NCBI GenBank assembly: GCA_041653195.1
Contig: JBAZFU010000001.1
Location: forward strand, 70,545 to 134,544
From: an archaeon
Lineage (GTDB): Archaea > Iainarchaeota > Iainarchaeia > Iainarchaeales > JAAZKV01
Length of the DNA: 64,000 bases
Direction: 5' to 3'
Shown: one piece after another, positions 10,548 through 38,514 of the stretch
How positions within the stretch are numbered: position 1 is the first letter of the stretch
Layout of the letters: each line of letters begins with the position of its first letter
Position numbers and translations under genes: made by a program
Notes under the pieces: generated by a model
The model's database searches: none
What the model was told of the DNA's origin: nothing
The model's input: the letters and a program-made list of their open reading frames with translations, nothing else

Positions 10548-12362
10548 ATGGCCGAAGAATACCTGAACCAATTGATGAAACAATTAAAGGAAAAAAGCGA
10601 ACCAGAGACGGAAAACGAAAAAATTCCCGACGCAGGCGTTAAACTTTCCGGAACAAAAAAAATAAGCCAAATAGAAGAGGAAATAATTGTCTCGGAAAAA
10701 AATGCCGACGAATCTTTTGTGAGAGCCCCCACCTATTCCGCAGAAACCGTCGAAAGCGAAGCGGAAGAAAAACAAAAAATTATGCCTGCACAGAGAATGA
10801 GTGCAAATGATGCCCTCTCTCCGCTAAAAAAAGAAATCAGTGAAGGAAGCGAACCAATACCCGACGCCGCGGAAAAAACGACTGCCGAAAAAGAAGTGGA
10901 AAAAAGTCAAAAAATAGAACTAAAGTCCTATGGAAAAGTAAAAATATTCAGGATACCGGAAAAACCGTTGCCGTACTACTTCATCCCGACTCCGCGCCCA
11001 ACCTCTGCAGAAAGAAAAATAATAAACACAATAAAAGAGGCAACAACAAGACTAATATCAATTGCGCCTTACAAAGTGCGCGACCCCGAACAAAGAAGAA
11101 TAGTTTACAAACAAAAAATAATCGAAATACTAAAAAACAGCCCTTCGCTCAAAGTGCCCGAAAGCAGAATAAATTTTTACGCCGAAGCCGTGGTAAGAGA
11201 AATGGTCGGATACGGAATAATTGACGACTTGATAAAGGACGACCAACTCGAAGAAATAATGGTAATCGGACCGAAACAACCCATCTACGTTTTCCACAGA
11301 GAATTCGAAATGATGAGCACCAACATAGAATTCTTTTCAGAACAAGAAATAGAGGACTTGGTAAACAAAATCGCAAGAGAAGTAGGAAGAAGAGTTGATG
11401 TTTCAGCGCCGCTACTTGATGCAAGACTTCCCGACGGAAGCAGAGTAAACGCAACAATACCTCCCGCGTCAATAAGCGGAGGAACACTCACAATAAGAAA
11501 ATTCAAGGCAGACCCCTACTCAATAATTGATTTAATAAAAATAGGAACTATTTCAAGCGAAGCGGCAGCATTCCTCTGGCTCTGCGTAGAAGGAATGAAT
11601 GTAAAACCGGCGAACATACTGATTTCGGGAGGAACCGGATCCGGAAAAACAACACTATTAAATATTTTAACCGCATTCGTTCCGGAAAGAGAAAGAGTAA
11701 TTACAATCGAAGACACTGCAGAATTAAGTTTGCCGCTAAAACACTGGATAAGAATGGAAGCAAGACCGCCCGGATTGGAAGGAACAGGCGAATTGAAAAT
11801 GGATATTCTTACAAAAAACTCTCTCCGAATGAGACCTGACAGAATAATTGTCGGAGAAGTAAGGCACGAAGAAGCATTCACGCTTTTCACCGCACTTAAC
11901 ACCGGCCACGACGGATGCATGGGAACGGTTCACGCAAACAGCCCACAGGAAACAATAATCAGGGTAACAAACCCGCCGATGAATGTCCCAAAAATAATGC
12001 TCAGCGGATTAGACATGATAATAATAGAACACAGACTGCACGACAGAAAAAAAGGAACAATAAGAAGGATAACCGAAATGGCGGAAGTTTACAACGCGCT
12101 TGAAGGGGACCCAAAAACAGAAACGATTTACAAATGGGACCCTGTAAAAGACTCGCTTGAAAGAACACTTGTAAACAGCAAGTATGTTAACAATCTCCAA
12201 ATATTCAGCGGACTAAACAAAGAACAAATCAACGCCGAAATAAACATAAGAAAAACTTTTTTAGACGAACTCACAAAACAAAATATTCGAAGCATTTTAG
12301 CCGTTTCATCAGCAACAAAAAAATTCTTGGAAAAAAGAGCCGAAGCGAGTGATTTGAAATGA
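10548..12362 (+). CDS. type IV filament assembly ATPase (TadA/FlaI/VirB11 superfamily)
   Basis: 604 aa; Walker A GGTGSGKTT; T2SS-E-like core; acidic N-terminal extension; followed by platform and pilin genes. Confidence 0.85.
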   Translation: MAEEYLNQLMKQLKEKSEPETENEKIPDAGVKLSGTKKISQIEEEIIVSEKNADESFVRAPTYSAETVESEAEEKQKIMPAQRMSANDALSPLKKEISEGSEPIPDAAEKTTAEKEVEKSQKIELKSYGKVKIFRIPEKPLPYYFIPTPRPTSAERKIINTIKEATTRLISIAPYKVRDPEQRRIVYKQKIIEILKNSPSLKVPESRINFYAEAVVREMVGYGIIDDLIKDDQLEEIMVIGPKQPIYVFHREFEMMSTNIEFFSEQEIEDLVNKIAREVGRRVDVSAPLLDARLPDGSRVNATIPPASISGGTLTIRKFKADPYSIIDLIKIGTISSEAAAFLWLCVEGMNVKPANILISGGTGSGKTTLLNILTAFVPERERVITIEDTAELSLPLKHWIRMEARPPGLEGTGELKMDILTKNSLRMRPDRIIVGEVRHEEAFTLFTALNTGHDGCMGTVHANSPQETIIRVTNPPMNVPKIMLSGLDMIIIEHRLHDRKKGTIRRITEMAEVYNALEGDPKTETIYKWDPVKDSLERTLVNSKYVNNLQIFSGLNKEQINAEINIRKTFLDELTKQNIRSILAVSSATKKFLEKRAEASDLK

Positions 12363-13465
12363 GCGGACTTGAACAGGGAAACTATTCAATAGACAAGGAA
12401 GAAGTGGACAGAATAGTCGAAGGAATGAAAAAAAAATACCAAGAAGAAGGAATGCACTTTGAAGAAGTTTCAGAAAACCTGCGCGAACTAAGAGGAATAA
12501 TTTCAGAAGAATCTTATTCAAAAATAGACATAGAAAGCGAATCGGATGTGGAAAACTTTGATTCCAAAGCAATGCAATTCTTCGGAAACCTTTACCTAAA
12601 AACAAGAGGAATACTCAAACCTATACAGGAATCACTCAAAAAACTCCCGTCAAACAAAGAACTGAGCTATTACCTCTACTCCGCAAATATGCAATACTCG
12701 TCAAACCAATATTTGGCAATATCAAGTGCGGTCGGGCTGCTCGCCGGCCTAATCATATTCGCATCAATATTATTAGTCGGAGCAATACTGCTAAGCCCGC
12801 TAATAGCAATACTTGCATTCCCCATGGCAATGTTTGCCGGAATAATCGCAACGGTAATAACCCTCATAATCCCAAAACAAAAGGCAACTGCAAGAGGCGA
12901 TGCGTGCTCGGTTGAACTGCCATTCGCTTTAAGACACATGGCAACCGAACTCAAAGCAGGAATCGGACTATACAAAACAATACAAGCTGTTGCGGCAGCG
13001 AATTACGGAGTGCTAAGCGAAGAATTTGCAAGAACAATAAATGAAATAGAAGAAGGAACAGACACAAGCCTCGCGCTCAGACACCTCGCACTAAGAACAC
13101 AAAGCAGACCGCTAAAAACTGCAATAATGCACATAATAAGAGCGATGAGAATCGGCGGAAACCTTTCAAATATAATAAATGAAATCGCAAACGATGTCTC
13201 GGAAGACCTGCGAAACAGAATAAACGCATTCTCCCAAAAAATGAATCTATTCTCGGTAATATTCATCTTCATCGGAATAGTTATGCCTGTAGGAATAACA
13301 ATACTCGGCGCAATAAGAAACTCGCCAATAACGAGCGGCGGACAGGAACTGTTTAGTGCGATTCCGCTCACACCTCCAATAATGATAATATTTTACTTAG
13401 TCGCAATGCCATCACTATTCATAATGCTAAATTTTATGATTTATGTAATGCAACCAAAAATGTGA
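12359..13465 (+). CDS. T2SSF-domain membrane platform protein (TadB-like, single domain)
   Basis: 368 aa; polytopic; 4-nt overlap with ATPase gene; one T2SSF-like cytoplasmic domain (EFARTINEIEEGTDTSLALRHLA). Confidence 0.7.
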   Translation: MSGLEQGNYSIDKEEVDRIVEGMKKKYQEEGMHFEEVSENLRELRGIISEESYSKIDIESESDVENFDSKAMQFFGNLYLKTRGILKPIQESLKKLPSNKELSYYLYSANMQYSSNQYLAISSAVGLLAGLIIFASILLVGAILLSPLIAILAFPMAMFAGIIATVITLIIPKQKATARGDACSVELPFALRHMATELKAGIGLYKTIQAVAAANYGVLSEEFARTINEIEEGTDTSLALRHLALRTQSRPLKTAIMHIIRAMRIGGNLSNIINEIANDVSEDLRNRINAFSQKMNLFSVIFIFIGIVMPVGITILGAIRNSPITSGGQELFSAIPLTPPIMIIFYLVAMPSLFIMLNFMIYVMQPKM

Positions 13466-14391
13466 AACAAAAAAGGGATGTTATGAATTTAGTAGAAGAA
13501 TATACATCATGGATAGAATTCAGCAGAATACCAATAAAGGCACCCGTGTGGGTTGCGATGTCAATAATAGTTGCAGGCCTTGTAGGAGGACTTTCTCTTG
13601 TAATGACCTTCATTATACTTCATGAAGTAACACTGCTTCCGGTAGCATTCGCAATAGCAACACTGGTATTACTCCTCGGCTACCCTTACATGAAAACCGA
13701 ATCCATAATAGACTCTATCGAAAAAAATTTCAGCGACGCACTCAAACAAATGGCAGACACTCTAAAAGCAGGAGACACTTATGAAAGCGCGCTACGCGAA
13801 GTAGCGAATGCGGAATATGGAAGACTCTCGGAAGAAATGGACTCCGCACTCAGAAGACTGGAAGAAGGAGAAAATCTTGAAACATCACTAACAGGCTTCG
13901 CTGAAAAAGTAAATTCAAAACTTGTTAGAAGAACAATGACAATAATACTTGATTCTATAAGAACCGGGGCAAGCCTCGCGGACATACTTGACGAAATATC
14001 CGATGATGTACGAGCCATAGAAAGAATAAAAGAAGAAAGAAAATCAAACACCACAATGCAATTCATGTTCATGGCGCTGGCGGGCGGATTAATAGCCCCT
14101 GCAATATTCGGCGAAGTAAACAGCGTGATGACGATATTTTCAAAAGTTTCACTAAAAATGCTTGCAACAAGCCAACTCGAAGCAAGCCAACAGGTTACAA
14201 ACTTAATATTGCTATTAATACAATCCTATTTGATAATTGAGGTTGTAGCATCAGGCGCAATGATGTCAATAATAAGAGAAGGAAAGTTGAACAAAAGCGT
14301 TATATATATCCCACTCCTATTATTGCTTGCTTTCATAGCATACTACGCCACTAGAGCGGGAACTGCCGCACTAATAGGGAGCGCAGTGTGA
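13462..14391 (+). CDS. T2SSF-domain membrane platform protein (TadC-like, single domain)
   Basis: 309 aa; paralog of the preceding gene (YGRLSEEMDSALRRLEEGENLETSL); 4-nt overlap. Confidence 0.7.
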   Translation: MKQKRDVMNLVEEYTSWIEFSRIPIKAPVWVAMSIIVAGLVGGLSLVMTFIILHEVTLLPVAFAIATLVLLLGYPYMKTESIIDSIEKNFSDALKQMADTLKAGDTYESALREVANAEYGRLSEEMDSALRRLEEGENLETSLTGFAEKVNSKLVRRTMTIILDSIRTGASLADILDEISDDVRAIERIKEERKSNTTMQFMFMALAGGLIAPAIFGEVNSVMTIFSKVSLKMLATSQLEASQQVTNLILLLIQSYLIIEVVASGAMMSIIREGKLNKSVIYIPLLLLLAFIAYYATRAGTAALIGSAV

Positions 14392-14680: not shown

Positions 14681-14944
14681 ATGAAAGGAAGAGGACAAGG
14701 ATCGCTGGAGTACCTGCTCATAATCGGAGCAGCACTAATAATCGCGATAATTGTAATTGCAGTAGTAACCGGACTTGGTTCAAACAATGCTCCACCAACA
14801 AGTGATGTTCAGGCACAAGCCGATGTTGGAAAATGCCTAAACAATTGTTGTGAATTTGGAATAAATTCTGATAAAAACTGTGAAACAATAAATCCTGCTG
14901 CATGCCAATTGCCAGACAATAACAGCAACTGGAAGGGCTGTTAA
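14681..14944 (+). CDS. class III signal-peptide pilin with Cys-rich C-terminal module
   Basis: 87 aa; MKGRGQGSLEYLLIIGAALIIAIIVIAVV; AAAGGAGG RBS; C-terminus has 6 Cys including the CLNNCC motif. Confidence 0.7.
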   Translation: MKGRGQGSLEYLLIIGAALIIAIIVIAVVTGLGSNNAPPTSDVQAQADVGKCLNNCCEFGINSDKNCETINPAACQLPDNNSNWKGC

Positions 14945-15099
14945 AAAAAATATTCTATTTCGGGATGACGCCCAAGAATAAGCATTTTTGGGCGCCATTT
15001 CTAATTTTTTTAAATTTTCAACCATAAATATTTTCCAATTTTTTATCCCGATTGCATTAAGGCAAATGTTTAAAAACTAGAAAAGCGTTATAGAACACA

Positions 15100-15591
15100 A
15101 TGGACAAACGCGGACAAGGCGCACTAGAGTACCTGCTCATAATCGGAGCAGCGCTGGTAATTGCAATAATAGTTATTTCTGTAATAGTTTTGACTGGGAC
15201 ATCTACTGACACAAGCGCCTCAACATCAAGTGCAGCAAACAAGTTGGACCAAACGAACTGTCTAAACGACTGCTGCTACAAAAGCAAAACAAGCGACCAA
15301 AACTGCGAAACAATACTTTCAAATTACTGCGCAATACCTCCTGCAAGCAGCGACGACTCGAATACTTACAAATATGAAAACTATTACAAGGAATGCGTTC
15401 CGAATTTCGTGAGAGGGGGCGATATAGCAAAATGTACTGCCACTATAAGCGGGTGCTGCTACAATGCTCCAACAACCGATAAAAACTGCGACTTAATAAT
15501 TCCAAGCGTTTGTATAGGTCCGACAAATTGCGCGGATTTGCCGACACAACCAGAAATAGACGCGTGCGACGCCAGATACCAAGGCTGCTAA
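15100..15591 (+). CDS. class III signal-peptide pilin with large Cys-rich C-terminal domain
   Basis: 163 aa; MDKRGQGALEYLLIIGAALVIAIIVISV; 16 Cys; shares the CLNDCC motif with neighbours. Confidence 0.7.
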   Translation: MDKRGQGALEYLLIIGAALVIAIIVISVIVLTGTSTDTSASTSSAANKLDQTNCLNDCCYKSKTSDQNCETILSNYCAIPPASSDDSNTYKYENYYKECVPNFVRGGDIAKCTATISGCCYNAPTTDKNCDLIIPSVCIGPTNCADLPTQPEIDACDARYQGC

Positions 15592-15689
15592 CATTAGGCT
15601 TAAATTATTCTTTCTGCAACAGAAACTATTTTTGTTTGCACCAAAACCATAAACACAATCTTTAAATACCTGAATGAATTATTATTAGC

Positions 15690-16046
15690 ATGGAAAAATC
15701 AAAACGCGGACAAGGTGCAATAGAGTACCTGCTTCTTCTAGCTGCAGGAGTAATAGTAGTTGCAGTAGTGATGATATTTTTAATTAACTCAACAACCGTT
15801 GGAAAAGAAAGCGGTTGCGCCGGTTTAAACACGTATTTGTGCGACAACTTAGACTCTAATACCGAGACCTGCGCATGCTATACCGGAAATGCAAACGGCT
15901 ACTGGTCAAGTTTGGATTGTAATACCAGTGTCTGCAAAGGACAACAAGCTTCTGTGTGCTGCAATAAGGACTGTACAGAACTCAACAGCAAGTGGAAGGA
16001 TACGAACAGCCAGTTAGGACCAACAAGTCCAAAACTTTGCGGATAA
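15690..16046 (+). CDS. class III signal-peptide pilin with Cys-rich C-terminal domain
   Basis: 118 aa; MEKSKRGQGAIEYLLLLAAGVIVVAVV; 10 Cys. Confidence 0.7.
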   Translation: MEKSKRGQGAIEYLLLLAAGVIVVAVVMIFLINSTTVGKESGCAGLNTYLCDNLDSNTETCACYTGNANGYWSSLDCNTSVCKGQQASVCCNKDCTELNSKWKDTNSQLGPTSPKLCG

Positions 16047-16065
16047 AAAAAACCAAGTGTCAAAA

Positions 16066-16243
16066 AATGTTTGAAGAAGAAAGAGCGCAAGTTTCTTTCG
16101 AATACCTACTCACAGCAGTCTTTGGAATAATGCTCGCGATAAGCGCCGCAATAATCATAGAAACTCTAAGAGAAATCGCATTGCGTGCACAGGCAGACAT
16201 ACTAACCACAAGAGAAGAAGTAATCACGAATATAATGGAATAA
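16066..16243 (+). CDS. small Flp/Epd-like pilin (59 aa)
   Basis: ATG at 16066 inside the longer ORF 15992..16243; MFEEERAQVSFEYLLTAVFGIMLAISAAII; paralog of the 14436 gene (ERAQxxxEYLL). Confidence 0.55.
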
Positions 16244-16317: not shown

Positions 16318-17439
16318 ATGTTTCTAGCACTTCCAATAATCGCCTCGATAATTGGGCTTCTGGGCGCGACCTACACGGACCTTAAAGAAAGAATAGTGCC
16401 AAACAAGCTGAATTACGGGCTGGCAATTACGGGAATATTATTATATTCTGCGCAAAGCGTAATCGAATCAAACGCGACCCCTGTTCTTTATTCAATTGGG
16501 GGGCTCGCCGCAGGATTCGTATTCGGATGGGCCCTGTGGAAAATCGGAGTATTTGCCGGAGGAGACGTAAAATTATTTGCCGGACTCGGAGCACTTAACC
16601 CAGTAACCCCCTTCATCGCACAAACGCTTCTGCCTATTCAAATTTCTTATATTCAAATTCCTTTCATTTTTCCGATAACTCTTTTCATAAATTCATTAGT
16701 AGCATTCCTTCCATACGGACTAATAGTATTGCTTTACAAATTATCAAAAAACAAAAAATTTCAAAAAAAAATAGCAGCCGAAATGCTTACAAAAACAAAA
16801 CAAGCAATACACCTCGCTCTTTTTTCCGCCGCAACCTATACCATACTGACAGCCCTTTCAATAAACCCGATTATTTCAATCGCCATCGTAATAATTTGGA
16901 GCCTTACTAGAAACCTCAAAAAAATAATCACTGCAATTGCTTCAATAGCGGCAATTTCACTAAATTTTTCTGTATTTGGACAGGCTTTTGTAGCAATCGC
17001 CATTGTGACTGTAATACTTTACGGAATAATCAAACTGCTTTTTTCATTAAGACCGCTGTTATCAAAAGAAGTTTTGATTACTCGCCTTGAAGAGGGAATG
17101 ATTCCTGCAGACACTTTTGTGAAAAAAGACGGCAAAATAATAATTGCTGAAAAAATTTCGTTCAAACAAATAATTAAATACGCGAAAACACAAAAGATAA
17201 GTGAAATGGTAAAAGAATTCTCCTTACAGAAAAAGGAAATTATTTCTGCAAACAGGGCCAGGGGGCTCACTTTGAAAGAAATTGCAATTGTAAAAAAATT
17301 TGCAAAAGAAGGAAAAATGCCAAAAAAAATAACCATAAAAGAATCGATGCCATTTGTTCCGACAATGATGCTCGGTTACCTGCTCTGCATGGCCGCAGGA
17401 GACTTTATAATAATGACTTTGCTGAAGGTGATTTTTTGA
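16318..17439 (+). CDS. A24-family prepilin/preflagellin peptidase (PibD/FlaK/EppA-like) with C-terminal extension
   Basis: 373 aa; catalytic-Asp motifs TYTDLKERIVPN and FAGGDVKLFAGLGA; polytopic membrane protein. Confidence 0.75.
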   Translation: MFLALPIIASIIGLLGATYTDLKERIVPNKLNYGLAITGILLYSAQSVIESNATPVLYSIGGLAAGFVFGWALWKIGVFAGGDVKLFAGLGALNPVTPFIAQTLLPIQISYIQIPFIFPITLFINSLVAFLPYGLIVLLYKLSKNKKFQKKIAAEMLTKTKQAIHLALFSAATYTILTALSINPIISIAIVIIWSLTRNLKKIITAIASIAAISLNFSVFGQAFVAIAIVTVILYGIIKLLFSLRPLLSKEVLITRLEEGMIPADTFVKKDGKIIIAEKISFKQIIKYAKTQKISEMVKEFSLQKKEIISANRARGLTLKEIAIVKKFAKEGKMPKKITIKESMPFVPTMMLGYLLCMAAGDFIIMTLLKVIF

Positions 17440-17897
17440 AACGCGGACAAACATCAATCGAGTTCATAATAATAATTTTGATAGTTGTGTTGTTTGTAAT
17501 AACTACTACAAAGCCGCTGATTGAAAACGCCAAAGGGATAACTGAGGACATTGTAAATATTACAAGAGCAAACAGCGAAACAAAACGAATTGCCAATGCC
17601 GCAACGGAAATATCTCTAATGGGCGTCAGTTCAAAAAAAACAATCGAAGTTTCTATTCCTGCAAAAGCAACACTGCACTGCTACCAAGACAAAAATGTCG
17701 GATTTACTGTTGAATTACAAGTTCCGCCTTATCCAAAAGACTGCAATAACGGGATATGCGACAAAAATATTCTAACGCCAACATCATTCAACGGCAGTTC
17801 GCCAATTTCGTGCAATTCGCAATTCGAAAATATAAAAGGTCAAAAAACGATAGTAATTGAAAAGGACGATGAATCAAAAATTTCAATACACCCGTAA
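17436..17897 (+). CDS. class III signal-peptide (pilin-like) protein
   Basis: 153 aa; MKRGQTSIEFIIIILIVVLFVI; 4-nt overlap with peptidase gene. Confidence 0.6.
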   Translation: MKRGQTSIEFIIIILIVVLFVITTTKPLIENAKGITEDIVNITRANSETKRIANAATEISLMGVSSKKTIEVSIPAKATLHCYQDKNVGFTVELQVPPYPKDCNNGICDKNILTPTSFNGSSPISCNSQFENIKGQKTIVIEKDDESKISIHP

Positions 17898-17920
17898 AAA
17901 GAAAACTAAAAGGGCAAAAA

Positions 17921-18271
17921 ATGAAACAAAAGGGACAAACAAATTTCGAGGCGCTGATACTGCTTCTACTGGTAATAAGCTCCGCAATATTCATATCCGC
18001 GCTTTACTTTCAAACCCATGACATCACAATTGCAACGGCCATTGCAAGAAATGATATTTTAAAACAACTCAATTCAATCGATGAACAGATTGAGATAGAA
18101 AGCGTAAAAGTAACTGTGAATTCGTTAAAAGACGCAAATATAAATATTAAAACTTCTCCAGAAACCGTTTATTCATCGAATCTTGATTCGGAAAAACTCG
18201 CGGAAACCGCTGCAAAAATAAAATCCGACACCTCATTCAATCACATACTAATTAAAATTAACGACAACTAG
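17921..18271 (+). CDS. class III signal-peptide (pilin-like) protein
   Basis: 116 aa; MKQKGQTNFEALILLLLVISSAIFI. Confidence 0.6.
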   Translation: MKQKGQTNFEALILLLLVISSAIFISALYFQTHDITIATAIARNDILKQLNSIDEQIEIESVKVTVNSLKDANINIKTSPETVYSSNLDSEKLAETAAKIKSDTSFNHILIKINDN

Positions 18272-18364
18272 AGCCCCTTGCATTTTCCGCCCGCCACGTT
18301 TTTCTGTTTCGTTAAGCGACGAAAAAAACACCTTGTTTTTATTCCTGCAAAAAAAATCCTTTTA

Positions 18365-18703
18365 ATGAATGAACAAAATCTTGCACGAATATGTCTTGCA
18401 ATAAGCGCAACCGGAATAATTCTGTTTATAATTTTCTATGCGCCCGAATTTGAAGAAAAAAGCATAAAAGAGATGCTTGAATCGGATGCGGAAAAAACAG
18501 GAATTATTTTCGGCAGAGTGGATTACGTAATAAAAAATACGCCGTCAACAAGCTTTATCCTAAACGACGGAAGCACAATTCTAATTTATTTTCCAAAACA
18601 AACAGAACTCAAAAAAAATGATTTCGTAAAAGTTTATGGAACAACGCAGGAATACGGCGATCAGAATGAAATATACGCTTACAAACTGGTCGTGGAAAAA
18701 TGA
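18365..18703 (+). CDS. membrane-anchored OB-fold-like small protein
   Basis: ATG at 18365 (MNEQNLARICLAISATGIILFII); single N-terminal TM helix then a beta-rich roughly 85-aa domain. Confidence 0.45.
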   Translation: MNEQNLARICLAISATGIILFIIFYAPEFEEKSIKEMLESDAEKTGIIFGRVDYVIKNTPSTSFILNDGSTILIYFPKQTELKKNDFVKVYGTTQEYGDQNEIYAYKLVVEK

Positions 18704-19863
18704 TAATTATCTTTTGTTTCCTCGGAATAATTGCAGGAATAATTGCGGGCTTAACGCCGGGATTGCATGCCAACAATATTGCAATAATCGCTTTGACAAG
18801 CCCGTTTTTCGGAGAGGATTTTGCGGCGTTTATACTTAGCATGTGCATCGTGCAAACATTTGTCGATTTTGTTCCCACAATTTTTTTAGGCGCACCGGAC
18901 ACGGAAACATTTGAGGGCGTACTTCCCGGCCATGCAATGCTTCTTGAAGGCAAAGGGATGGAAGCAATCTGCCTAACTGTATTTGGCGGAATAATTGCCA
19001 TAACTTTTAGCACATTATTAATCCCATTTTTCTTTATTTTTATCACACAAAACAGCGAAGCGATAGTTACGGCAACGCCCCCCGTCCTGGCTTTCGCAAT
19101 ACTTATTTTTGTCCTAAGCGAAGAAACCCGAAATAAAAAAATAGCCGCGATATTCACAATAATTTGCGCCGGAACACAAGGATTACTTTTCAGAAACCAA
19201 ATATTTCCGCTGATTACTGGGTATTTTGGCATTCCTACTATTGCATATGCGCTGCAAAAACAAACCTGTCAAAAGATTCAGTCTAAAGAGGTTAAAATAG
19301 AAAAAACCGGATTGCGAGAGGGAATTTGGGGAGTAATCGGCGGTTCAATAGTTGCACTCTTGCCGGGAATAGGAAGCAATGTTGCAGCACGAATAATACG
19401 CACATTCACAACAAAAATAAAACGAACAAATTATTTGGTTTTGATAGGAAGCGCCAACACTTCAAACTTTTTTTTCTCATACATAGTGCTTTTCGCCCTT
19501 TCAAAAGCAAGAAACGGGGCAATGATAGTCCTTAAAGAAAAAATATTCTTCACGAACTATGCGCTTCTACTCGGCACCATAATAATGATTTTCGCCGGAG
19601 GAATTGGCGGAATGGCCACAATATTTCTTGCAAAAAGCGCAATAGGCTTTTTTAATGAAAAAAGAACACAAATTCTTTCAATATTTACTCTCGCACTCAT
19701 GATAATTCTCGTAGGCTTTTTCAATGGGCCGAGTGGATTAATCGCACTGGTTTTTTCGAGTGCGCTTGGATTTTTCGTAATATTCAAAAAAATAAAAAGA
19801 AGCAGTTGCATGGCTTCAATAATCATTCCCGCAATGCTTTTCTACACATTCACCCTAATTTAA
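18700..19863 (+). CDS. TctA-family (DUF112) membrane protein
   Basis: 387 aa; GLTPGLHANN motif at N-terminus; 10 or more TM helices; 4-nt overlap with upstream gene. Confidence 0.6.
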   Translation: MIIIFCFLGIIAGIIAGLTPGLHANNIAIIALTSPFFGEDFAAFILSMCIVQTFVDFVPTIFLGAPDTETFEGVLPGHAMLLEGKGMEAICLTVFGGIIAITFSTLLIPFFFIFITQNSEAIVTATPPVLAFAILIFVLSEETRNKKIAAIFTIICAGTQGLLFRNQIFPLITGYFGIPTIAYALQKQTCQKIQSKEVKIEKTGLREGIWGVIGGSIVALLPGIGSNVAARIIRTFTTKIKRTNYLVLIGSANTSNFFFSYIVLFALSKARNGAMIVLKEKIFFTNYALLLGTIIMIFAGGIGGMATIFLAKSAIGFFNEKRTQILSIFTLALMIILVGFFNGPSGLIALVFSSALGFFVIFKKIKRSSCMASIIIPAMLFYTFTLI

Positions 19864-19865
19864 GG

Positions 19866-20243
19866 ATGGGTTGGAAAATAAAAAAAAATGTAATTGAAGC
19901 CATTATGGCCGCCTCAAAAGCCGCCTACCCAAATGAATTTGTTACATTACTTAGCGGAAGCGAAAAAGAAAAAATAGTTGATGAATATGCGATGTTGCCT
20001 GGAGACAGCGGGCCAACATTTGCTACGGTCGGCGGATGGGGCCTTGACGCCTACCCTGTAGACGAAAAATTAATAGGAAGCGCGCATTCTCATCCTTCCA
20101 ATTCAAATTTGCCAAGCATAGCGGACAAAAAATTCTTCAAGCAATACTTCTTAAACACCATAATTTGCGCCCCCTTTGAGATTCAAAATTTTGCTTTTTA
20201 CAACGCAAACGGGGAAAAAATAGGGGTTGAAATCATTGAATAG
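19866..20243 (+). CDS. JAMM/MPN-domain metalloprotease
   Basis: ATG at 19866; JAMM motif E...HSHPSNSNLPSIAD (H-x-H-x7-S-x2-D); about 125 aa. Confidence 0.7.
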   Translation: MGWKIKKNVIEAIMAASKAAYPNEFVTLLSGSEKEKIVDEYAMLPGDSGPTFATVGGWGLDAYPVDEKLIGSAHSHPSNSNLPSIADKKFFKQYFLNTIICAPFEIQNFAFYNANGEKIGVEIIE

Positions 20244-20277: not shown

Positions 20278-20709
20278 ATGAAAAAAGGGCAGGTCAGCAT
20301 GGATTTCATGATTGCGGCGTTAATCGCAATAATTACAATCGGTTCCTTCCTAATAGTTGTTGAAAATTTTCGCGACGATTACGAAAAAATGTTTGTACAA
20401 AATCAACTCAAACAAATTTCTTCCAAAATAAGCTCTTTTGCAACCTCTTCCCAGGGAATGAATGGAACACAATTCAGAGTTGAAACACGACTTCCAAAAG
20501 TAATCTACAAAAACAGCACAATTCTTCCAACAATAAAATTTAATGACGCGCACACAAACGTGGACGTTAATGTTACAATAACAACCGCTTCCTCGGAAGG
20601 TTCAAAAAGCGAAATTCTAAGTTCAACAGCGTATTTCACAATTCCAGAAAACGCTAACATTGACATAAATCAACAAACATACCAATGGGTGGTAATAACA
20701 CGTGAATAA
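20278..20709 (+). CDS. class III signal-peptide (pilin-like) protein
   Basis: Internal ATG 20278; MKKGQVSMDFMIAALIAIITIGSFLIVV. Confidence 0.55.
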   Translation: MKKGQVSMDFMIAALIAIITIGSFLIVVENFRDDYEKMFVQNQLKQISSKISSFATSSQGMNGTQFRVETRLPKVIYKNSTILPTIKFNDAHTNVDVNVTITTASSEGSKSEILSSTAYFTIPENANIDINQQTYQWVVITRE

Positions 20710-21748
20710 AGGACAAATAACTACGATTGACTTCCTAATTTCAATGGCCCTTGTAATTTTCTGCGTTGGGGCAATAATGGGTTTTGCAGAACTTCAAACC
20801 TACAAAATAAAATCCGAAATAAAAGAAAACGCTCTCGTGGAAAAAGCGGACGCCGCACTCATAGTTCTTGCAAGCGGGACTGAGACGGGCTGCCTTTTGG
20901 GCGATCATAATCTTGCATATTCTTTCAATACAAGCGTTGCGAATATGAGCGACGCGGAATTAAAAAAAATATTTGGAATAGGCGCAAACGAAGATTATAA
21001 TCTCGAACTTAAAGTTGGAGAAACCACAATAATTAGCGAACAATTGAACGGAAAAAATATTATTGCGACCGATATAAACCTGCTCGTCTGCAATAATCCA
21101 AATATAAGCGGGCCAATAAGTCTTTGGCGCCTAAACAATAACACAAACGACAGCAATATCCAAACAATGAACAATCTGTTAAGCAACACTGCGAATTGGG
21201 TTACTGGAAAAGACGGCAACGCGTTAAAGTTCAATGGCGCAAACGATTATGCTGAAAAACCCAATGCATCAAAGTTGCCTCTTGGCAATGGCGCAAGAAC
21301 AATTGCACTGTGGATAAAACCAAAAATAGTTGGAACTGACCAAGGGATTATAGGCTACGGCAACAGCGGCGAAGTTTTTGCAATAATAATAAGCGCGAAT
21401 AAATGGGCACTCTTCACAGGCACAAATACTTCAACATTTGGCAACCCGATAATTACCGAAAAATGGTATCAGATTGTTTTAACATACGGGGGCGGGAACG
21501 ATGTGAACACATATGTTAACGGAGAATTTAAACAAACTGTTTCTCTCGGCGGCATTCCATTGAACACTGCCAACTCCAATTTGACAATTGGGAGATTTAC
21601 TACAAGCACTGACAAATATTTCAACGGAACACTAGACGAAATCAGCATTTGGAGCAGGGCTCTAAGCCAAGAAGAAATAAGGACACTTTATCTTGCAAAT
21701 TTGTACGAAGTAACGCGCGAAAAGGCAGTTTTAAAGGTGAGCGGATGA
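20702..21748 (+). CDS. pilin-like protein with C-terminal LamG/concanavalin-A-like lectin domain
   Basis: 348 aa; MNKGQITTIDFLISMALVIFCVGAIMGF; LamG signatures (LWRLNNNTND, NGANDYAEKPNASKLPLGNGARTIALWIKP, YQIVLTYGGGNDVNTYVNGEF, NGTLDEISIWSRALSQEEI). Confidence 0.7.
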   Translation: MNKGQITTIDFLISMALVIFCVGAIMGFAELQTYKIKSEIKENALVEKADAALIVLASGTETGCLLGDHNLAYSFNTSVANMSDAELKKIFGIGANEDYNLELKVGETTIISEQLNGKNIIATDINLLVCNNPNISGPISLWRLNNNTNDSNIQTMNNLLSNTANWVTGKDGNALKFNGANDYAEKPNASKLPLGNGARTIALWIKPKIVGTDQGIIGYGNSGEVFAIIISANKWALFTGTNTSTFGNPIITEKWYQIVLTYGGGNDVNTYVNGEFKQTVSLGGIPLNTANSNLTIGRFTTSTDKYFNGTLDEISIWSRALSQEEIRTLYLANLYEVTREKAVLKVSG

Positions 21749-22029
21749 AAAAAAACTGCGGATTCATATTTTCAGCAGAAGCACTGATTTCGATAGCATT
21801 GCTTATTGTAGCAGCAACAATCATAATCAATGCTTCGCAAAGCGCCGATAACTACCAGAAAAACTTTTTCAAACAGCGCGCCGAAAACGATGCTGCAATG
21901 GGAGTTTATTTCAATGATTCTAACAAAATTCCAACAGGTTTAGAGAATAATATTTCCTGCAAAAAAATCACCGATTACAATTCAGATGCAAAAGTTTTTG
22001 AAAAAGAATTTTGTGAGGGTGCGCAATGA
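21745..22029 (+). CDS. pilin-like small protein (class III signal peptide-like N-terminus)
   Basis: ATG 21745 overlapping the stop of the LamG pilin (ATGA); MKKNCGFIFSAEALISIALLIVAATIII. Confidence 0.5.
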   Translation: MKKNCGFIFSAEALISIALLIVAATIIINASQSADNYQKNFFKQRAENDAAMGVYFNDSNKIPTGLENNISCKKITDYNSDAKVFEKEFCEGAQ

Positions 22030-22427
22030 AAAAAAACTTTAACAGGGGCTTCGCATCAGTACTCGCAATACTGGCAGTGTTCACCGTTGCAATAATCTTA
22101 TTGAATCGGAGTTATCAGGAAACAAGTTCGCCAGATTTCAAAGGCAACTTTTCCGAAACAGCACTCTTCCTAACGACCTACGAGCTTAGCATTGAACGGG
22201 CAATCTCAGACTGCGACCCAATCAGAAATACTAACACTTGTTTAACAGACTATAATGATCAAATAATCGCCTCAAGCGCGCCAAAAAATACTCATTGCCG
22301 AACATTTTTCTCAGATGAAGCGAACAACAGAATCCGAATAATACTTGACTGCACTACACTCGTCGAAGACGACAAATCAATAGTTTTTAGAAATCAATTC
22401 AGAAAAACGTTTTTCATAACCAGATAG
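22026..22427 (+). CDS. pilin-like small protein
   Basis: 133 aa; MKKNFNRGFASVLAILAVFTVAIILL; ATGA overlap with previous gene. Confidence 0.5.
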   Translation: MKKNFNRGFASVLAILAVFTVAIILLNRSYQETSSPDFKGNFSETALFLTTYELSIERAISDCDPIRNTNTCLTDYNDQIIASSAPKNTHCRTFFSDEANNRIRIILDCTTLVEDDKSIVFRNQFRKTFFITR

Positions 22428-29373: not shown

Positions 29374-30912
29374 TCAGCTGAAATGCTTTGAAACAAGCGA
29401 AAGCACCTTATTCGGTTGGAAATAATAGTCCTGAATAACTTCAAGAACCTCTTCCGGCTTTCTTATTTTCTTTTCAAACATCCACTCAAGAATTTTTTGG
29501 CGCATCAAAATTTCCTGCTTTAACTCGTTTTTTGAAATCGCGTTGGAGTTGGCCATCTTCTCAATTATGCCGCTGGGCAAATCCGTTTTCTTGACAACAT
29601 TCGCAGTTTTATCCCACTCAAAAATATTCGCAAGCAAAACCCTGCTCTCCATCCTAGAAACTTCTGCAACCTCTAAAACATTTCTCTGCATTCCACCACT
29701 GCCCGAATGGTGTCTGCCAAGCACAACAATTAAATCGATGAGCGGGAGGAGCGCCTGAGGAACAGACATTGGAGGCTCCTGCAAACGAATAATAGCTTCT
29801 CGAGCATCATTAGCATGAATTGTCCCCATAACCCCATCATGACCGGTATCCATCGCAATAAACATTGTAAGCGCTTCATTGCCCCTAACTTCCCCCACAA
29901 GTATCCTGTCCGGACGCATTCTCAAAGAATTCTTTAACAAATCATTCATCGAAACTTCTTCATCAACAGAACTTCTTGCTTCCAAAGGAACCCAATTCTT
30001 TCTATCCAAAAGAGAAAGCTCTAAAGTGTCTTCAATTGAAACAATTCTATTATTTATTCGAATAAAATTAGCTAAAACATTAAGGAAAGTAGTTTTTCCT
30101 GTTGCAGTTCCTCCAGTTATCAAAATATTTGCAGGAGAAACATCGAACCCGTCAACCATTGCCCACAAAAAAGCTGCTAACTCGAAATTAAGAGTTCCGG
30201 ATTCAATCAAATCAATAACTGTAAGCGGAATAGGCGAAAATTTTCTTATTGTCAAAGAAATTCCACGCGGAGAAACATCACTAAAAGTCGCATTGACCCT
30301 GCTCCCGTCCGGCAAGCGCGCATCAAGCAAAGGGCTCTTCGAATCAAATTTTTTCCCGACACTTGAAGCAACTCTTTGAAGAATCACTCCAAAAGATTTT
30401 TCATCAATGGCCATGCTCGCCTTGCACATACCATACTGCTTATGAAAAACAAAAACATTATCCATCCCGTTAACCATCAGCTCTTCCAACGAATCATCCA
30501 ACAAAAAAAAAGCAAACTGCTTCAAACCAATAGAATTTTGAAGAACAACGCCTGCAAAAAGTTCCTTGTTGGAAACAAAATTTATTTGATTGAGGCATTT
30601 CACCAGTGCATTGAAAAGATCAGAAAAAACTTTATTTGAAGGAAGCTTCTCAAGAAGCGAATTTATTTCAACAATAGAAATTACTTCCTCCCTGAACGCT
30701 GTCGAAAATTCTTCGCCCGCACCTTCAAAATCGGAAAGTTCCTTAAATGAAGCTTTTCTTTGAATTACTCTTTCAAGCAAATCCATGAAAGCCTGCTCCG
30801 CTCCGGCAAAAGGCATCTGCGCAACTTCGTAAAAATTCTGAGGAAACCCCTCATAAACATCCCCAAACGGAGAAGAGGAAAGCTTTTTCCCTTTAGATTC
30901 GTTAAGAGTCAT
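29374..30912 (-). CDS. second type IV filament/secretion ATPase (PilB/FlaI/TadA superfamily), orphan
   Basis: 512 aa; Walker A GGTATGKTTFLN; RMRPDRILVGEVRGNEA box; paralog of the 10548 ATPase but no neighbouring platform or pilin genes. Confidence 0.8.
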   Translation of the reverse strand: MTLNESKGKKLSSSPFGDVYEGFPQNFYEVAQMPFAGAEQAFMDLLERVIQRKASFKELSDFEGAGEEFSTAFREEVISIVEINSLLEKLPSNKVFSDLFNALVKCLNQINFVSNKELFAGVVLQNSIGLKQFAFFLLDDSLEELMVNGMDNVFVFHKQYGMCKASMAIDEKSFGVILQRVASSVGKKFDSKSPLLDARLPDGSRVNATFSDVSPRGISLTIRKFSPIPLTVIDLIESGTLNFELAAFLWAMVDGFDVSPANILITGGTATGKTTFLNVLANFIRINNRIVSIEDTLELSLLDRKNWVPLEARSSVDEEVSMNDLLKNSLRMRPDRILVGEVRGNEALTMFIAMDTGHDGVMGTIHANDAREAIIRLQEPPMSVPQALLPLIDLIVVLGRHHSGSGGMQRNVLEVAEVSRMESRVLLANIFEWDKTANVVKKTDLPSGIIEKMANSNAISKNELKQEILMRQKILEWMFEKKIRKPEEVLEVIQDYYFQPNKVLSLVSKHFS

Positions 30913-33209: not shown

Positions 33210-33282
33210 TGGACCGTGGGGGATTCGCACCCCCGACCACGCCGTTGCGAACGGCGGATCATAACTGCTAGACCAACGGCCC
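33210..33282 (-). tRNA. tRNA-Ala (anticodon CGC)
   Basis: Manual fold: acceptor GGGCCGT/ACGGTCC with G3:U70; anticodon stem CGCCG/CGGCG, loop TTCGCAA; T-arm GGGGG-TGCGAAT-CCCCC; 73 nt. Confidence 0.8.
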
Positions 33283-34410
33283 TGGCAATATCTTACCTGT
33301 TTCGCAGAACTCTTTATATTTGTTTAGAATTCTTGGGTTGCTACTGCCAATTAGTTCAAACCACTTGTGTGTGTTTTCTATGCCTCTAACACTTACACTT
33401 TCCGCATGAACAAATGCCTTAATTCCCTGTTTCAAAAGTATTTCTTTTATTTGATTTCGCAAAACTGGGCTGTAAGAACAAATTGTCACATAAGGATACC
33501 TGAATCGCTCATCCTTTCTTGCATTCATGTGACCATCTGTATCAAGCAAACCTCTAATCACAAAATTCAAGTTCTCAGTTTTAAGGCTTAAAAAATTATT
33601 CGAGATTCCGAAATCTTTTGGCTTTCCATTTGTATGATAACCATTGCTTAAAAGCCATTCATAAAATAGCCTACTGCTGAATTGAAGACGCACTGAATTA
33701 TCTTTACGAAAAAATATTGCCGGCTTAATTGGGAAATACTTTCTAATTATCGCATCAAGATACTTAACGTATTCTACGTCTTTTTTTGCGTTCCCAACAA
33801 TTGCCCCGTGATAAACATATTGCCCAGAGCTTTTTGAAAAATATTTCCCACAATGGCCATCGCCCAGCATTGCCCCAAATAATTCACACAATTCTGGATT
33901 TGCAATATCGGGAAAACCGTCATAAGTTTCCCAAGTTATTTTCTTCTTACAAGACCTAACTTTTTTTAGGTGCTTTCTAAACCCGCTTTCCCCCAAACAC
34001 TTTTTCATAGTTCTTATTGAATTTGTTCCGCCTTTTTTGGCGCCCCAATTATTTGGCAAAAAATTTATCTGTTTTAAAAATTCAAATTTTTGTTCAGTAG
34101 GCAAATAATTCAATAACCCGAAGAAAACTCTCGAAGGAAAAGTTATTTCGCCTCGCCTTATTCTCTTGAGACCTGTATTTCCAATGTTGAATTCTTTAAG
34201 CCATTCATTCCAAGAAACATACTTCTGAGAAGCTTTCGCAAGAGCAAATAACTTTCTCGGATTTGGAATTCGGACTCTCCGGTCGCTTTTATCCTCTTCC
34301 ATTTCAGATTTTTGTTTTTCTTCGTTTTTAACCGCATCGGAGCTTTCATGCCAGTCATTCATCAAAATCACCCTCCGAAAAGTTTTCCAAAATCCAGAGT
34401 TCCCTTCCAT
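33268..34410 (-). CDS. HTH + double-motif LAGLIDADG homing-endonuclease-like protein (paralog 1)
   Basis: 380 aa; LAGLIDADG motifs FGAMLGDGH and GLLDTDGHM; N-terminal HTH-like region; stop codon lies 15 nt inside tRNA-Ala 5' end. Confidence 0.65.
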   Translation of the reverse strand: MEGNSGFWKTFRRVILMNDWHESSDAVKNEEKQKSEMEEDKSDRRVRIPNPRKLFALAKASQKYVSWNEWLKEFNIGNTGLKRIRRGEITFPSRVFFGLLNYLPTEQKFEFLKQINFLPNNWGAKKGGTNSIRTMKKCLGESGFRKHLKKVRSCKKKITWETYDGFPDIANPELCELFGAMLGDGHCGKYFSKSSGQYVYHGAIVGNAKKDVEYVKYLDAIIRKYFPIKPAIFFRKDNSVRLQFSSRLFYEWLLSNGYHTNGKPKDFGISNNFLSLKTENLNFVIRGLLDTDGHMNARKDERFRYPYVTICSYSPVLRNQIKEILLKQGIKAFVHAESVSVRGIENTHKWFELIGSSNPRILNKYKEFCETGKILPGPLV

Positions 34411-38374: not shown

Positions 38375-38470
38375 AAGAAAATATTTTTGTGCGAATTTTA
38401 TATTTGCTTCTGGACTGCCGTGCCGGTGACCGGCCAAATTTGTAAAATGATCACAAAAAGAGCAAATAAA

Positions 38471-38502
38471 GGAATTGAACCCTACCACTAGACTACGGCT
38501 GC
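38471..38502 (-). pseudogene. internally deleted tRNA-like fragment (acceptor 5' strand GCAGCCG + D-arm fused to T-arm-like GGGTTCAATTCC)
   Basis: Minus: GCAGCCGTAGTCTAGTGGTAGGGTTCAATTCC; 5' strand complementary to the acceptor 3' strand of fragment 35268-35301; T-arm identical to the tRNA-Gly(CCC) T-arm. Confidence 0.4.
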
Positions 38503-38514
38503 AAAATAAATTCC

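What the first reader, a model, noticed from the sequence alone, without database searches (positions are those of the whole stretch)
20702..21748. Pilin-like protein carrying a LamG/concanavalin-A-like lectin domain
A class III signal peptide (MNKGQITTIDFLISMALVIF) is fused to a domain with clear LamG hallmarks (…ALWIKP…, YQIVLTYGGG…VNGEF, NGTLDEISIWSRALSQEEI). A lectin-like domain mounted on a pilin scaffold suggests a carbohydrate-binding pilus tip adhesin.
Basis: partly seen in the sequence, partly recalled or inferred. Interest (0 to 1): 0.55.

Follow-up and report, generated by a model that had tools for sequence, protein, structure and literature searches.

The report
Archaeal minor pilin with inserted LamG domain
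A small DPANN archaeon has inserted a lectin-like (LamG) domain into one of four conserved small pilin-like proteins of its type IV pilus gene cluster, probably making a sticky pilus subunit much like one already characterised in a streptococcus.

Summary
Window 20702-21748 (+) encodes a 348-aa protein with a strong Laminin_G_3 hit (E 2.9e-25) and a confident predicted beta-sandwich. Its N-terminus (MNKG|QITTID + hydrophobic helix) looks like an archaeal class III signal, although Pfam's Class_IIIsignal model does not match it.

Three refinements:
- Residues 1-135 belong to an unannotated family of about 100 stand-alone ~160-aa proteins found in Iainarchaeota (Diapherotrites, DPANN) and unclassified archaeal MAGs. 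Their predicted fold is pilin-like: a 55-residue helix plus a small sheet.
- The LamG domain is inserted before the family's last beta-strand, replacing a short Cys loop. It is not a C-terminal fusion. Only 3 of about 100 clusters have it.
- The gene is always second in a translationally coupled block of four pilin-like genes. Acidic-residue positions are fixed at +5, +6, +6 and none. The block lies in a complete pilus locus (ATPase, two TadC-like genes, class III pilins, A24 peptidase).

The most likely function is a minor pilin that displays a ligand-binding module, probably at the pilus tip. The closest precedent is S. sanguinis PilC. Tip location, cleavage and ligand are inferred, not shown. 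I rate it a new variant of a known kind, of moderate interest.

The parts
20702..21748 (+). Gene B: 348-aa pilin-like protein with an inserted LamG domain (the finding)
   Evidence: ORF; Laminin_G_3 E 2.9e-25; orthologs P0002 and P0003 in syntenic loci
20702..20713 (+). Predicted leader peptide MNKG; cleavage predicted after Gly4
   Evidence: Sequence; Gly4 and Gln5 invariant or nearly invariant in the family. Cleavage is inferred.
20714..21106 (+). Pilin-like scaffold, residues 5-135: alpha1 helix (3-58) plus strands 100-105, 108-112 and 120-130; conserved Cys64 and Cys130
   Evidence: HMM of 53 stand-alone members hits residues 1 to about 135 at E about 4e-40; AF2 pLDDT about 95; 99 family clusters
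21107..21709 (+). Inserted module, residues 136-336: low-confidence linker (about 131-170) plus the LamG/ConA-like beta-sandwich (Pfam 178-326 = nt 21233-21679)
21710..21745 (+). Terminal beta-strand, residues 337-348 (VTREKAVLKVSG), matching the family's C-terminal strand
   Evidence: PSSM of the family's last 12 columns scores best at the exact C-terminus of all three LamG orthologs (10.3, 23.5, 21.3 bits; 0 of 2000 shuffles); pLDDT 97
20278..20709 (+). Gene A: 143-aa pilin-like protein (MKKG|QVSMD, Asp at +5); its stop overlaps the gene B start by 8 nt
   Evidence: hhalign to class III pilins 81.6%
21745..22029 (+). Gene C: 94-aa pilin-like protein (MKKNCG|FIFSAE, Glu at +6); ATGA overlap with gene B
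   Evidence: hhalign to the B family 89%
22026..22427 (+). Gene D: 133-aa pilin-like protein (NRG|FASVLAIL, no acidic residue near the N-terminus); 4-nt overlap with gene C
16318..17439 (+). Archaeal prepilin peptidase (Peptidase_A24 + Arc_PepC)
   Evidence: NCBIfam FlaK/EppA-like, below cutoff
17436..18271 (+). Two further minor-pilin-like genes, 17436-17897 and 17921-18271 (G|QTSIE and G|QTNFE)
   Evidence: Class_IIIsignal on the first; motif scan
14681..16243 (+). Candidate major pilins: 14681-14944, 15100-15591, 15690-16046 (Cys-rich), and a 58-aa alpha1-only pilin-like ORF at 16067-16243
   Evidence: Pfam Class_IIIsignal E 2e-8 to 3e-6 on the first three
10548..14391 (+). Assembly core: T2SSE-family ATPase (10548-12362) and two T2SSF/TadC-like platform proteins (12359-13465, 13462-14391)

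Best explanation
Gene B encodes a modular minor type IV pilin of an Iainarchaeota (DPANN) archaeon.

Inferred steps:
1. The prepilin is inserted into the membrane through its N-terminal hydrophobic helix.
2. The locus's A24 prepilin peptidase removes the MNKG leader.
3. The mature protein assembles through its long alpha1 helix with the three co-encoded small pilin-like proteins (A, C, D) into a minor-pilin complex. This complex primes or caps the pilus built from the Cys-rich major pilins by the T2SSE ATPase and TadC-like platform.

Shown computationally: the ancestral ~160-aa subunit acquired a ~200-residue LamG/ConA-like beta-sandwich in the loop before its last beta-strand. The module therefore projects from the pilin head while the pilin fold stays intact.

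Inferred function: the module is the ligand-binding (adhesive) part. It most likely recognises a glycan or glycoprotein on a partner cell, a particle or a matrix, as the lectin module of S. sanguinis PilC does at the pilus tip.
For: - LamG identity: Pfam E 2.9e-25; AF2 beta-sandwich; Foldseek hits to carbohydrate-binding ConA-like modules and to PilC 7oa8, E 4.6e-9; PDB sequence hits only in residues 153-337.
- Scaffold is a conserved small-protein family: 99 clusters, nearly all 140-200 aa. Gly4, Gln5, Asp10, Cys64 and Cys130 are invariant or nearly invariant. The AF2 model of stand-alone P0010 has pLDDT 95.4, with helix 4-58 plus four strands, and lines up element by element with the target model.
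- Insertion, not fusion: the family's C-terminal strand is retained at the exact C-terminus of all three LamG orthologs.
- Pilin homology chain by hhalign: B to A 94.5%, A to Pfam-positive class III pilins 81.6%, B to C 89%.
- Context: T2SSE ATPase, two T2SSF genes, Class_IIIsignal pilins and Peptidase_A24+Arc_PepC on the same strand.
- The four-gene block has overlapping start and stop codons and fixed N-terminal signatures. In 16 loci, A has an acidic residue at +5 (16/16), B at +6 (16/16) and C at +6 (10/10 called). D has none in 12 of 13 called.
- The syntenic locus L004 has a 161-aa LamG-less gene at the same position.
- The LamG module evolves faster (29-42% identity) than the scaffold (53-73%), as expected for an exposed binding module.
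- Precedents: PF13385 modular pilins are frequent in bacteria and GspK has a domain inserted in its pilin sheet (PMC8179133); PilC is a tip-located glycan-binding pilin (PMC9934059); LamG-like genes are linked to T4P loci in DPANN (PMC5498576). Other pilin-N-terminus+LamG proteins exist: P0144, P0163, P0131, P0130, P0153.
Against: - No curated pilin model matches the scaffold (Pfam and NCBIfam).
- The acidic residue is Asp at +6, not the canonical Glu at +5. The direct profile match to Pfam-positive pilins is weak (22%).
- Cleavage, incorporation into a filament, tip location and ligand are all untested.
- The LamG fold alone does not specify carbohydrate versus protein ligands; structural matches are only 15-24% identical.
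- The pairing of the last strand with the scaffold sheet is inferred from secondary structure and pLDDT. I could not inspect coordinates.
Confidence: 0.62

Rival explanations
1. It is a membrane-anchored surface lectin, not a filament subunit. The N-terminal hydrophobic helix is an uncleaved signal anchor, and the protein (with A, C and D) stays in the membrane as a short stalk displaying LamG at the cell surface. An alternative version is a FlaF/FlaG-like, S-layer-contacting accessory of the pilus machine.
For: No Class_IIIsignal or other pilin model hit for the scaffold family. No solved pilin matched by Foldseek. Asp is at +6 instead of Glu at +5. The closest PDB sequence match of the LamG part is an 'S-layer domain-containing protein', 4qvs, E 1.9e-14.
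Against: A conserved K/R-G|Q motif at the exact expected cleavage site across about 100 clusters is not expected for a plain signal anchor. hhalign links the alpha1 region to bona fide class III pilins of the locus. A prepilin peptidase is encoded in the same locus. The predicted 55-residue alpha1 plus small sheet is the pilin architecture.
Confidence: 0.17
2. It is part of a bindosome-like or pseudopilus uptake assembly. As with Sulfolobus sugar-binding proteins that carry class III signals, the four proteins would form a short cell-proximal structure. LamG would capture glycans or other solutes for import, possibly handing them to the TctA-family transporter encoded in the locus.
For: A TctA-family membrane protein and a small TM protein lie between the peptidase/minor pilins and the four-gene block, and both are conserved in L001 and L004. 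Class III signals on sugar-binding proteins and the bindosome are an archaeal precedent (PMC4858521). The best structural match of the LamG domain is an arabinan-binding domain (5hon).
Against: TctA and the four-gene block are conserved whether or not LamG is present, so the LamG module is not integral to them. No solute-binding-protein domain is present. The locus encodes several candidate major pilins, which fits a real filament.
Confidence: 0.1
3. The ConA-like domain is catalytic (a glucanase or trans-glycosidase) rather than a binding module, making this an enzyme delivered on a pilin.
For: The ConA-like lectin/glucanase superfamily includes GH16-type enzymes. Modular pilins with predicted enzymatic modules exist (PMC8179133).
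Against: The only significant Pfam family is Laminin_G_3, with no glycoside-hydrolase family hit. The top structural matches are non-catalytic binding domains of enzymes and toxins, and pentraxins.
Confidence: 0.04

Closest known systems
Streptococcus sanguinis PilC (PDB 7oa8), a modular minor type IV pilin with a ConA-like lectin module (PMC9934059)
   Same: A class III signal and short pilin moiety carry a ConA-like/LamG beta-sandwich. It is encoded with other minor pilins, one of which lacks the acidic residue (PilA there, gene D here). The model matches 7oa8 structurally at E 4.6e-9.
   Different: PilC is bacterial (G|F..E5, IPR012902) and this protein is archaeal (KG|Q....D6). PilC's modules are grafted C-terminally (Ig-like plus lectin), whereas here the module is inserted before the last strand of the pilin fold. 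Only 15% identity over the aligned region. Glycan binding and tip location are shown or modelled for PilC and untested here.
Bacterial modular pilins with the architecture IPR012902 + PF13385 (Raynaud et al. 2021, PMC8179133); examples found here are P0130 and P0153
   Same: The same domain pair, pilin N-terminus plus Laminin_G_3, and the same evolutionary logic of adding a binding module to a pilin.
   Different: The survey was restricted to the bacterial N-methylation motif. Those are C-terminal fusions. The scaffold here is an unannotated archaeal family.
GspK/PilX-type 'K' subunit and the HIJK minor-pilin tip complex of T2SS/T4P
   Same: Four contiguous minor-pilin genes; one bulky subunit with a domain inserted into the pilin head (the GspK alpha-domain is inserted in the beta-sheet); one subunit without the conserved acidic residue.
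   Different: No detectable sequence similarity (only ComGE-like hits at E about 0.1 for gene C). Here the bulky subunit (B) keeps an acidic residue and a different subunit (D) lacks it. The inserted domain is a LamG sandwich, not an alpha-domain.
Haloarcula hispanica TafC, tip subunit of Tat-fimbriae (PMC11821415)
   Same: An archaeal filament subunit module joined to a laminin-G-like domain and proposed as a tip adhesin. NCBIfam TafC matches the LamG region at E 2.2e-9.
   Different: The score of 36.9 is far below the cutoff of 410. TafC is Tat-secreted, with an Ig-like donor-strand-exchange subunit and no relation to type IV pilins. No twin-arginine motif is present here.
DUF2341/PilY1-like large proteins predicted as tip adhesins in methanococcal T4P loci (Makarova et al. 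2016, PMC4858521), and LamG-like proteins linked to T4P loci in Micrarchaeota Mia14 (PMC5498576)
   Same: ConA-like-fold proteins encoded in archaeal/DPANN type IV pilus loci and proposed to mediate adhesion or host contact.
   Different: Those are described as large separate proteins, and the text I read does not describe them as pilin-LamG chimeras. Here the LamG lies inside a minor-pilin fold. No DUF2341 hit.

Membership tests
Laminin_G_3 / ConA-like lectin-glucanase superfamily | Sequence match above Pfam's gathering threshold | tested here: met
   PF13385 E 2.9e-25, 89.6 bits against cutoff 27.6, residues 178-326, covering the full model
Laminin_G_3 / ConA-like lectin-glucanase superfamily | Curved beta-sandwich (jelly-roll) fold | tested here: met
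   AF2 strands 172-317, pLDDT 70-92; 587 Foldseek PDB matches at E<=1e-3, the top ones all ConA-like modules
Laminin_G_3 / ConA-like lectin-glucanase superfamily | Carbohydrate (or Ca2+-dependent ligand) binding | not testable with these tools
   Only fold-level similarity (15-24% identity) to sugar-binding modules
Archaeal type IV pilin (class III signal peptide protein) | Short basic leader ending in Gly/Ala, followed by about 20 hydrophobic residues | tested here: met
   MNKG|QITTIDFLISMALVIFCVGAIMGF; motif and hydrophobicity scan; conserved in 16 loci
Archaeal type IV pilin (class III signal peptide protein) | Match to a curated signal or pilin model (Pfam Class_IIIsignal PF04021, N_methyl, archaeal pilin DUFs) | tested here: not met
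   No hit for the target. 0 of 60 family members hit PF04021; only weak DUF5411, DUF7287 and PilX_N matches. Indirect link by hhalign: B to A 94.5%, A to PF04021-positive pilins 81.6%; direct B to pilins only 22%
Archaeal type IV pilin (class III signal peptide protein) | Acidic residue at +5 of the mature protein | tested here: not met
   Asp is at +6, invariant in the family. hhalign places it opposite Glu5 with a one-residue insertion
Archaeal type IV pilin (class III signal peptide protein) | Long N-terminal alpha1 helix packed on a small beta-sheet head ('lollipop') | tested here: inconclusive
Archaeal type IV pilin (class III signal peptide protein) | Encoded with a prepilin peptidase, assembly ATPase and platform protein | tested here: met
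   Peptidase_A24+Arc_PepC, T2SSE and two T2SSF genes on the same strand within 10 kb; syntenic in L001 and L004
Archaeal type IV pilin (class III signal peptide protein) | Leader cleaved by the peptidase and subunit incorporated into a filament | not testable with these tools
   Needs biochemistry or EM
Modular pilins sensu Raynaud et al. 2021 | [quoted passage not shown] | tested here: met
   Scaffold family plus PF13385
Modular pilins sensu Raynaud et al. 2021 | Extra module grafted C-terminally via a short linker; N-terminal IPR012902 motif | tested here: not met
   The module is inserted before the last strand; the N-terminus is archaeal-type with no N_methyl hit
HIJK-like minor-pilin tip/priming complex | A set of about four co-transcribed minor pilins, one lacking the conserved acidic residue | tested here: met
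   Four overlapping genes A-D. D lacks an acidic residue in 12 of 13 loci where it was called; the exception, L010, has Glu at +3
HIJK-like minor-pilin tip/priming complex | Homology to GspH/I/J/K, PilV/W/X/FimU or ComGD-G families | tested here: not met
   No significant Pfam or NCBIfam hits; ComGE at E 0.09-0.12 for gene C only
HIJK-like minor-pilin tip/priming complex | Forms a quasi-helical complex at the filament tip and is required for assembly | not testable with these tools
   No multimer prediction tool was available; needs AF-Multimer/AF3, genetics or cryo-ET
TafC (Tat-fimbria tip subunit) | NCBIfam NF052521 above cutoff; twin-arginine signal | tested here: not met
   36.9 bits against cutoff 410, LamG region only; no RR motif in the N-terminus

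The most novel reading that the evidence does not exclude
The conserved A-B-C-D block is an archaeal counterpart, convergent or very distantly homologous, of the bacterial HIJK/PilABC minor-pilin tip complex. Its subunit order would be encoded in the position or absence of the N-terminal acidic residue (+5, +6, +6, none). The loop before the last strand of subunit B would be an insertion hot-spot through which Iainarchaeota lineages swap in partner-recognition modules. The LamG version would then be a lineage-specific host- or substrate-recognition determinant of a DPANN archaeon whose lifestyle is unknown.
Probability: 0.3. Interest if true: 0.65.

Novelty: new variant of a known kind. Interest (0 to 1): 0.45.

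Why it matters
How DPANN archaea recognise and attach to partners or surfaces is largely unknown, and almost nothing is known about tip or minor-pilin complexes of archaeal type IV pili. This locus gives a concrete, testable candidate. It has a defined four-gene minor-pilin set with a natural 'with module / without module' comparison across related genomes, and a soluble ~200-residue LamG module that could go straight onto glycan arrays or partner-cell binding assays. It also extends the modular-pilin principle, established in bacteria, to archaea, with a different topology (insertion rather than C-terminal graft). The general idea of a lectin domain on a pilin is already established experimentally (S. 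sanguinis PilC), and LamG-pilus links in DPANN have been noted before. The result refines that picture but does not overturn it.

Tried and rejected
- A PDB sequence profile of the scaffold family found nothing meaningful.
- Pfam and NCBIfam scans of the scaffold family and of genes A, C and D gave only sub-threshold hits: DUF7266, DUF7287, DUF5411, ComGE, PilX_N.
- HMMER could not report the 12-residue terminal strand as a separate domain. A PSSM scan with shuffles replaced it.
An 8-sequence alignment worked.
- I looked for a LamG paralog in the window as a donor of the insert and found none. The closest LamG relatives elsewhere are at most 32% identical, so the origin of the insert cannot be traced.
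- Rejected readings: assembly or fusion artefact (three independent assemblies share the architecture and the retained terminal strand); TafC membership (score far below cutoff, no Tat motif); pentraxin (E 0.14); glucanase (no GH family hit); archaellum locus (no archaellin or Fla accessory families among the locus proteins scanned).
Full report
**1. The observation**

Window 20702-21748 (+) is an intact ORF of 348 aa with a GTG start. Its start overlaps the stop codon of the upstream gene by 8 nt.

- Pfam gives Laminin_G_3 over residues 178-326 at E 2.9e-25, matching the model end to end.
- An AlphaFold2 model built on a 48-sequence alignment has mean pLDDT 81.5 and a beta-sandwich between residues ~172 and 317.
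- Foldseek against the PDB returns 587 matches at E<=1e-3. The leaders are non-catalytic ConA-like binding modules: AbnA arabinan-binding domain 4, the trans-sialidase lectin domain, tetanus and botulinum Hc, pentraxins and NanA CBM40. The S. sanguinis minor pilin PilC (7oa8) appears at E 4.6e-9.
- PDB sequence profiles hit only residues 153-337.

The LamG part is therefore certain.

**2. The N-terminus**

MNKG|QITTIDFLISMALVIFCVGAIMGF has the shape of an archaeal class III signal. However, Pfam's Class_IIIsignal model does not match it, and the acidic residue is Asp at +6 rather than Glu at +5.

A FlaFind-like scan of every ORF in the window finds ten such N-termini, all on the + strand between 14.7 and 22.4 kb, with only a few loose matches elsewhere. 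Four of the ten are Pfam-positive Class_IIIsignal proteins.

**3. What the N-terminal half is**

A profile of residues 1-140 from the three orthologs was searched exhaustively against 1.84 billion representative proteins. It found 99 clusters at E<=1e-3, of which 49 were at E<=1e-10.

- Apart from the two LamG orthologs, almost all are stand-alone proteins of 140-200 aa.
- They share M(x)KG|QIFS(I/L)DF, a hydrophobic helix and two invariant Cys (Cys64 and Cys130 in the target). Most also have a short Cys-x-Cys loop and a terminal strand '..L.LKVGK' or '..TLxVWK'.
- None of the 60 members scanned matches any curated pilin family, and the PDB has no sequence relative.
- An AF2 model of the stand-alone member P0010 is very confident (pLDDT 95.4): helix 4-58 followed by strands 96-101, 104-107, 117-127 and 141-149. 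This is the alpha1-plus-small-sheet layout of a pilin.

Profile-profile comparison gives a homology chain through alpha1. The B family matches gene A at 94.5% (E 7e-8). Gene A matches the locus's Pfam-positive class III pilins at 81.6% (E 1e-5, 72 columns). The B family matches gene C at 89%. The direct comparison of B with the pilins is weak (22%), but it aligns the invariant Asp with the pilins' Glu5 through a one-residue insertion.

**4. Insertion, not fusion**

An HMM built only from 53 stand-alone members matches the target from residue 1 to about 135 (E about 4e-40).

A PSSM of the family's last 12 alignment columns, slid along each LamG ortholog, scores highest at the exact C-terminus of all three: 10.3, 23.5 and 21.3 bits. 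The next-best windows score 3.6 bits or less, 0 of 2000 shuffles reach the observed value, and unrelated LamG proteins score 0.2 bits or less.

In the target model that last strand (337-347) has pLDDT ~97, while the linker at 131-170 is low-confidence. The secondary-structure elements of the target and of P0010 correspond one to one, except that the LamG module replaces P0010's short loop helix.

So a ~200-residue LamG module replaced the short Cys loop between the '..DINLLVCN' strand and the terminal strand. That this strand pairs back into the scaffold sheet is inferred; I could not inspect coordinates.

**5. Genomic context**

The gene lies in a complete archaeal type IV pilus locus, all on one strand:
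- T2SSE ATPase (10548-12362);
- two T2SSF/TadC-like genes (12359-14391);
- three Cys-rich Class_IIIsignal pilins and a 58-aa alpha1-only ORF (14681-16243);
- Peptidase_A24+Arc_PepC (16318-17439);
- two more pilin-like genes (17436-18271);
- a small TM/OB-like protein, a TctA-family protein and a JAB protein;
- the block A (20278-20709), B (the finding), C (21745-22029), D (22026-22427);
- ABCE1, NUDIX, Pelota and Elp3.

A/B, B/C and C/D overlap by 8, 4 and 4 nt. The same order occurs around the 52% and 44% orthologs. It also occurs in a much more distant genome (L004), where position 2 is a 161-aa LamG-less member.

Across 16 loci the N-terminal signatures are fixed:
- A: G|Q.S.D, acidic residue at +5 (16/16);
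- B: G|QIFSxD, acidic residue at +6 (16/16);
- C: G|F.FS.E, acidic residue at +6 (10/10 where called);
- D: G|F..., no acidic residue in the first nine positions (12/13; L010 has Glu at +3).

The major and other minor pilins of the locus have Glu at +5.

**6. Distribution**

A scan of one genome per GTDB species found the family in 13 genomes, all Ca. Iainarchaeum/Iainarchaeota or unclassified archaeal MAGs. Only one of them, the P0003 genome from Lake Pavin sediment, has the LamG version.

In 5.8 billion proteins there are only three full-length LamG versions. The LamG module diverges faster than the scaffold: 29-42% against 53-73% identity. There is no LamG paralog in the window, and the nearest LamG domains elsewhere are at most 32% identical.

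**7. Mechanism**

Shown computationally:
- a LamG domain sits inside a conserved small protein with pilin-like features;
- that protein is translationally coupled to three others with pilin-like N-termini;
- all four lie in a locus encoding the full pilus assembly machinery.

Inferred:
- cleavage after Gly4 by the A24 peptidase;
- assembly of A-D through alpha1 into a minor-pilin complex that primes or caps the pilus;
- outward display of LamG as the ligand-binding element.

The analogy is with HIJK and with S. sanguinis PilABC. [quoted passage not shown] The ligand (glycan or protein) is unknown.

Rivals, with my confidence in each:
- an uncleaved membrane-anchored lectin or an S-layer-contacting accessory (0.17);
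- a bindosome-like uptake assembly linked to the embedded TctA gene (0.10);
- a catalytic ConA-like module (0.04).

**8. Comparison with what is known**

- Modular pilins, including the PF13385 architecture, are widespread in bacteria (PMC8179133). PilC is the characterised example (PMC9934059).
- My LamG-only search also recovered bacterial G|FTLIE+LamG proteins (P0130, P0153). It recovered proteins with archaeal-type pilin N-termini and a C-terminal LamG as well: P0144 with GAQGAIEYLLIIGAA, and P0163 and P0131 with MKGISTIIATIIL.
- LamG-like genes near T4P loci in DPANN were noted for Mia14 (PMC5498576). ConA-like DUF2341 proteins were proposed as tip adhesins in methanococcal loci (PMC4858521). 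Haloarchaeal Tat-fimbriae have a LamG-bearing tip subunit, TafC (PMC11821415).

So a LamG domain on a filament subunit is a recurrent, known solution. Four things are new here: the unannotated Iainarchaeota-specific scaffold family; the GspK-like insertion topology instead of a C-terminal graft; the fixed four-gene context with its acidic-residue pattern; and the natural presence/absence polymorphism among related genomes.

**9. Verdict**

I rate it a new variant of a known kind, of moderate interest (0.45).

Noticed in passing
window 14681-14944, 15100-15591, 15690-16046, 16067-16243: Three candidate major pilins (Pfam Class_IIIsignal) are unusually Cys-rich, about 6-16 Cys in 87-163 aa, with repeated 'C..DCC...DKNCE' motifs. 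A 58-aa ORF (ERA|QVSFEYLL...) is essentially an alpha1 helix only and is conserved in L004 (3403-3582).
   Followed up: partly
window 18278-20243: A small TM/OB-like protein, a TctA-family membrane protein (E 2e-35) and a Prok-JAB protein sit between the two pilin sub-clusters. The TctA gene and the small protein keep this position in L001 and L004; JAB is missing in L004. Why a transporter-like gene is embedded in a pilus locus is unexplained.
   Followed up: partly
window 29374-30912 (-): A second T2SSE-family ATPase (512 aa) has no adjacent T2SSF/TadC gene. It is syntenic in L001 and L002.
   Followed up: no
L004 1-150 (ATPase gene running off the locus): In the distant syntenic locus the pilus ATPase (775 aa) carries an intein (Pfam Intein_splicing). 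The window's ATPase does not.
   Followed up: no
window 33268-34410 (-) and 37310-38554 (-): Two ORFs with LAGLIDADG_3 domains each end on or over a tRNA gene on the same strand (tRNA-Ala 33210-33282 and tRNA-Gly 37332-37402).
   Followed up: no
window 56876-58660 (+): A 594-aa protein with a Sec-type signal peptide and a transglutaminase-like core domain (E 1e-18). It is another possible surface or secreted factor.
   Followed up: no
P0144 (L019 8001-8903), P0163 (L020 634-1614), P0131: Independent pilin-N-terminus+LamG proteins outside this family. P0144 has a canonical archaeal GAQGAIEYLLIIGAA N-terminus and is a stand-alone gene away from any T4P locus. P0163 is annotated 'flagellin-like protein'. 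This suggests repeated, independent LamG-pilin fusions.
   Followed up: partly
family members P0063 (265 aa), P0073 (216 aa), P0099 (222 aa), L012 4001-4642 (213 aa): Some members of the scaffold family are 50-100 aa longer than typical without a LamG domain, so the head region may tolerate other insertions. A 'VWK'-ending subfamily matches the profile only over alpha1.
   Followed up: no
L010 about 4755-5174: This is the one exception to the 'gene D has no acidic residue' pattern: MKG|FIEIIV has Glu at +3.
   Followed up: no
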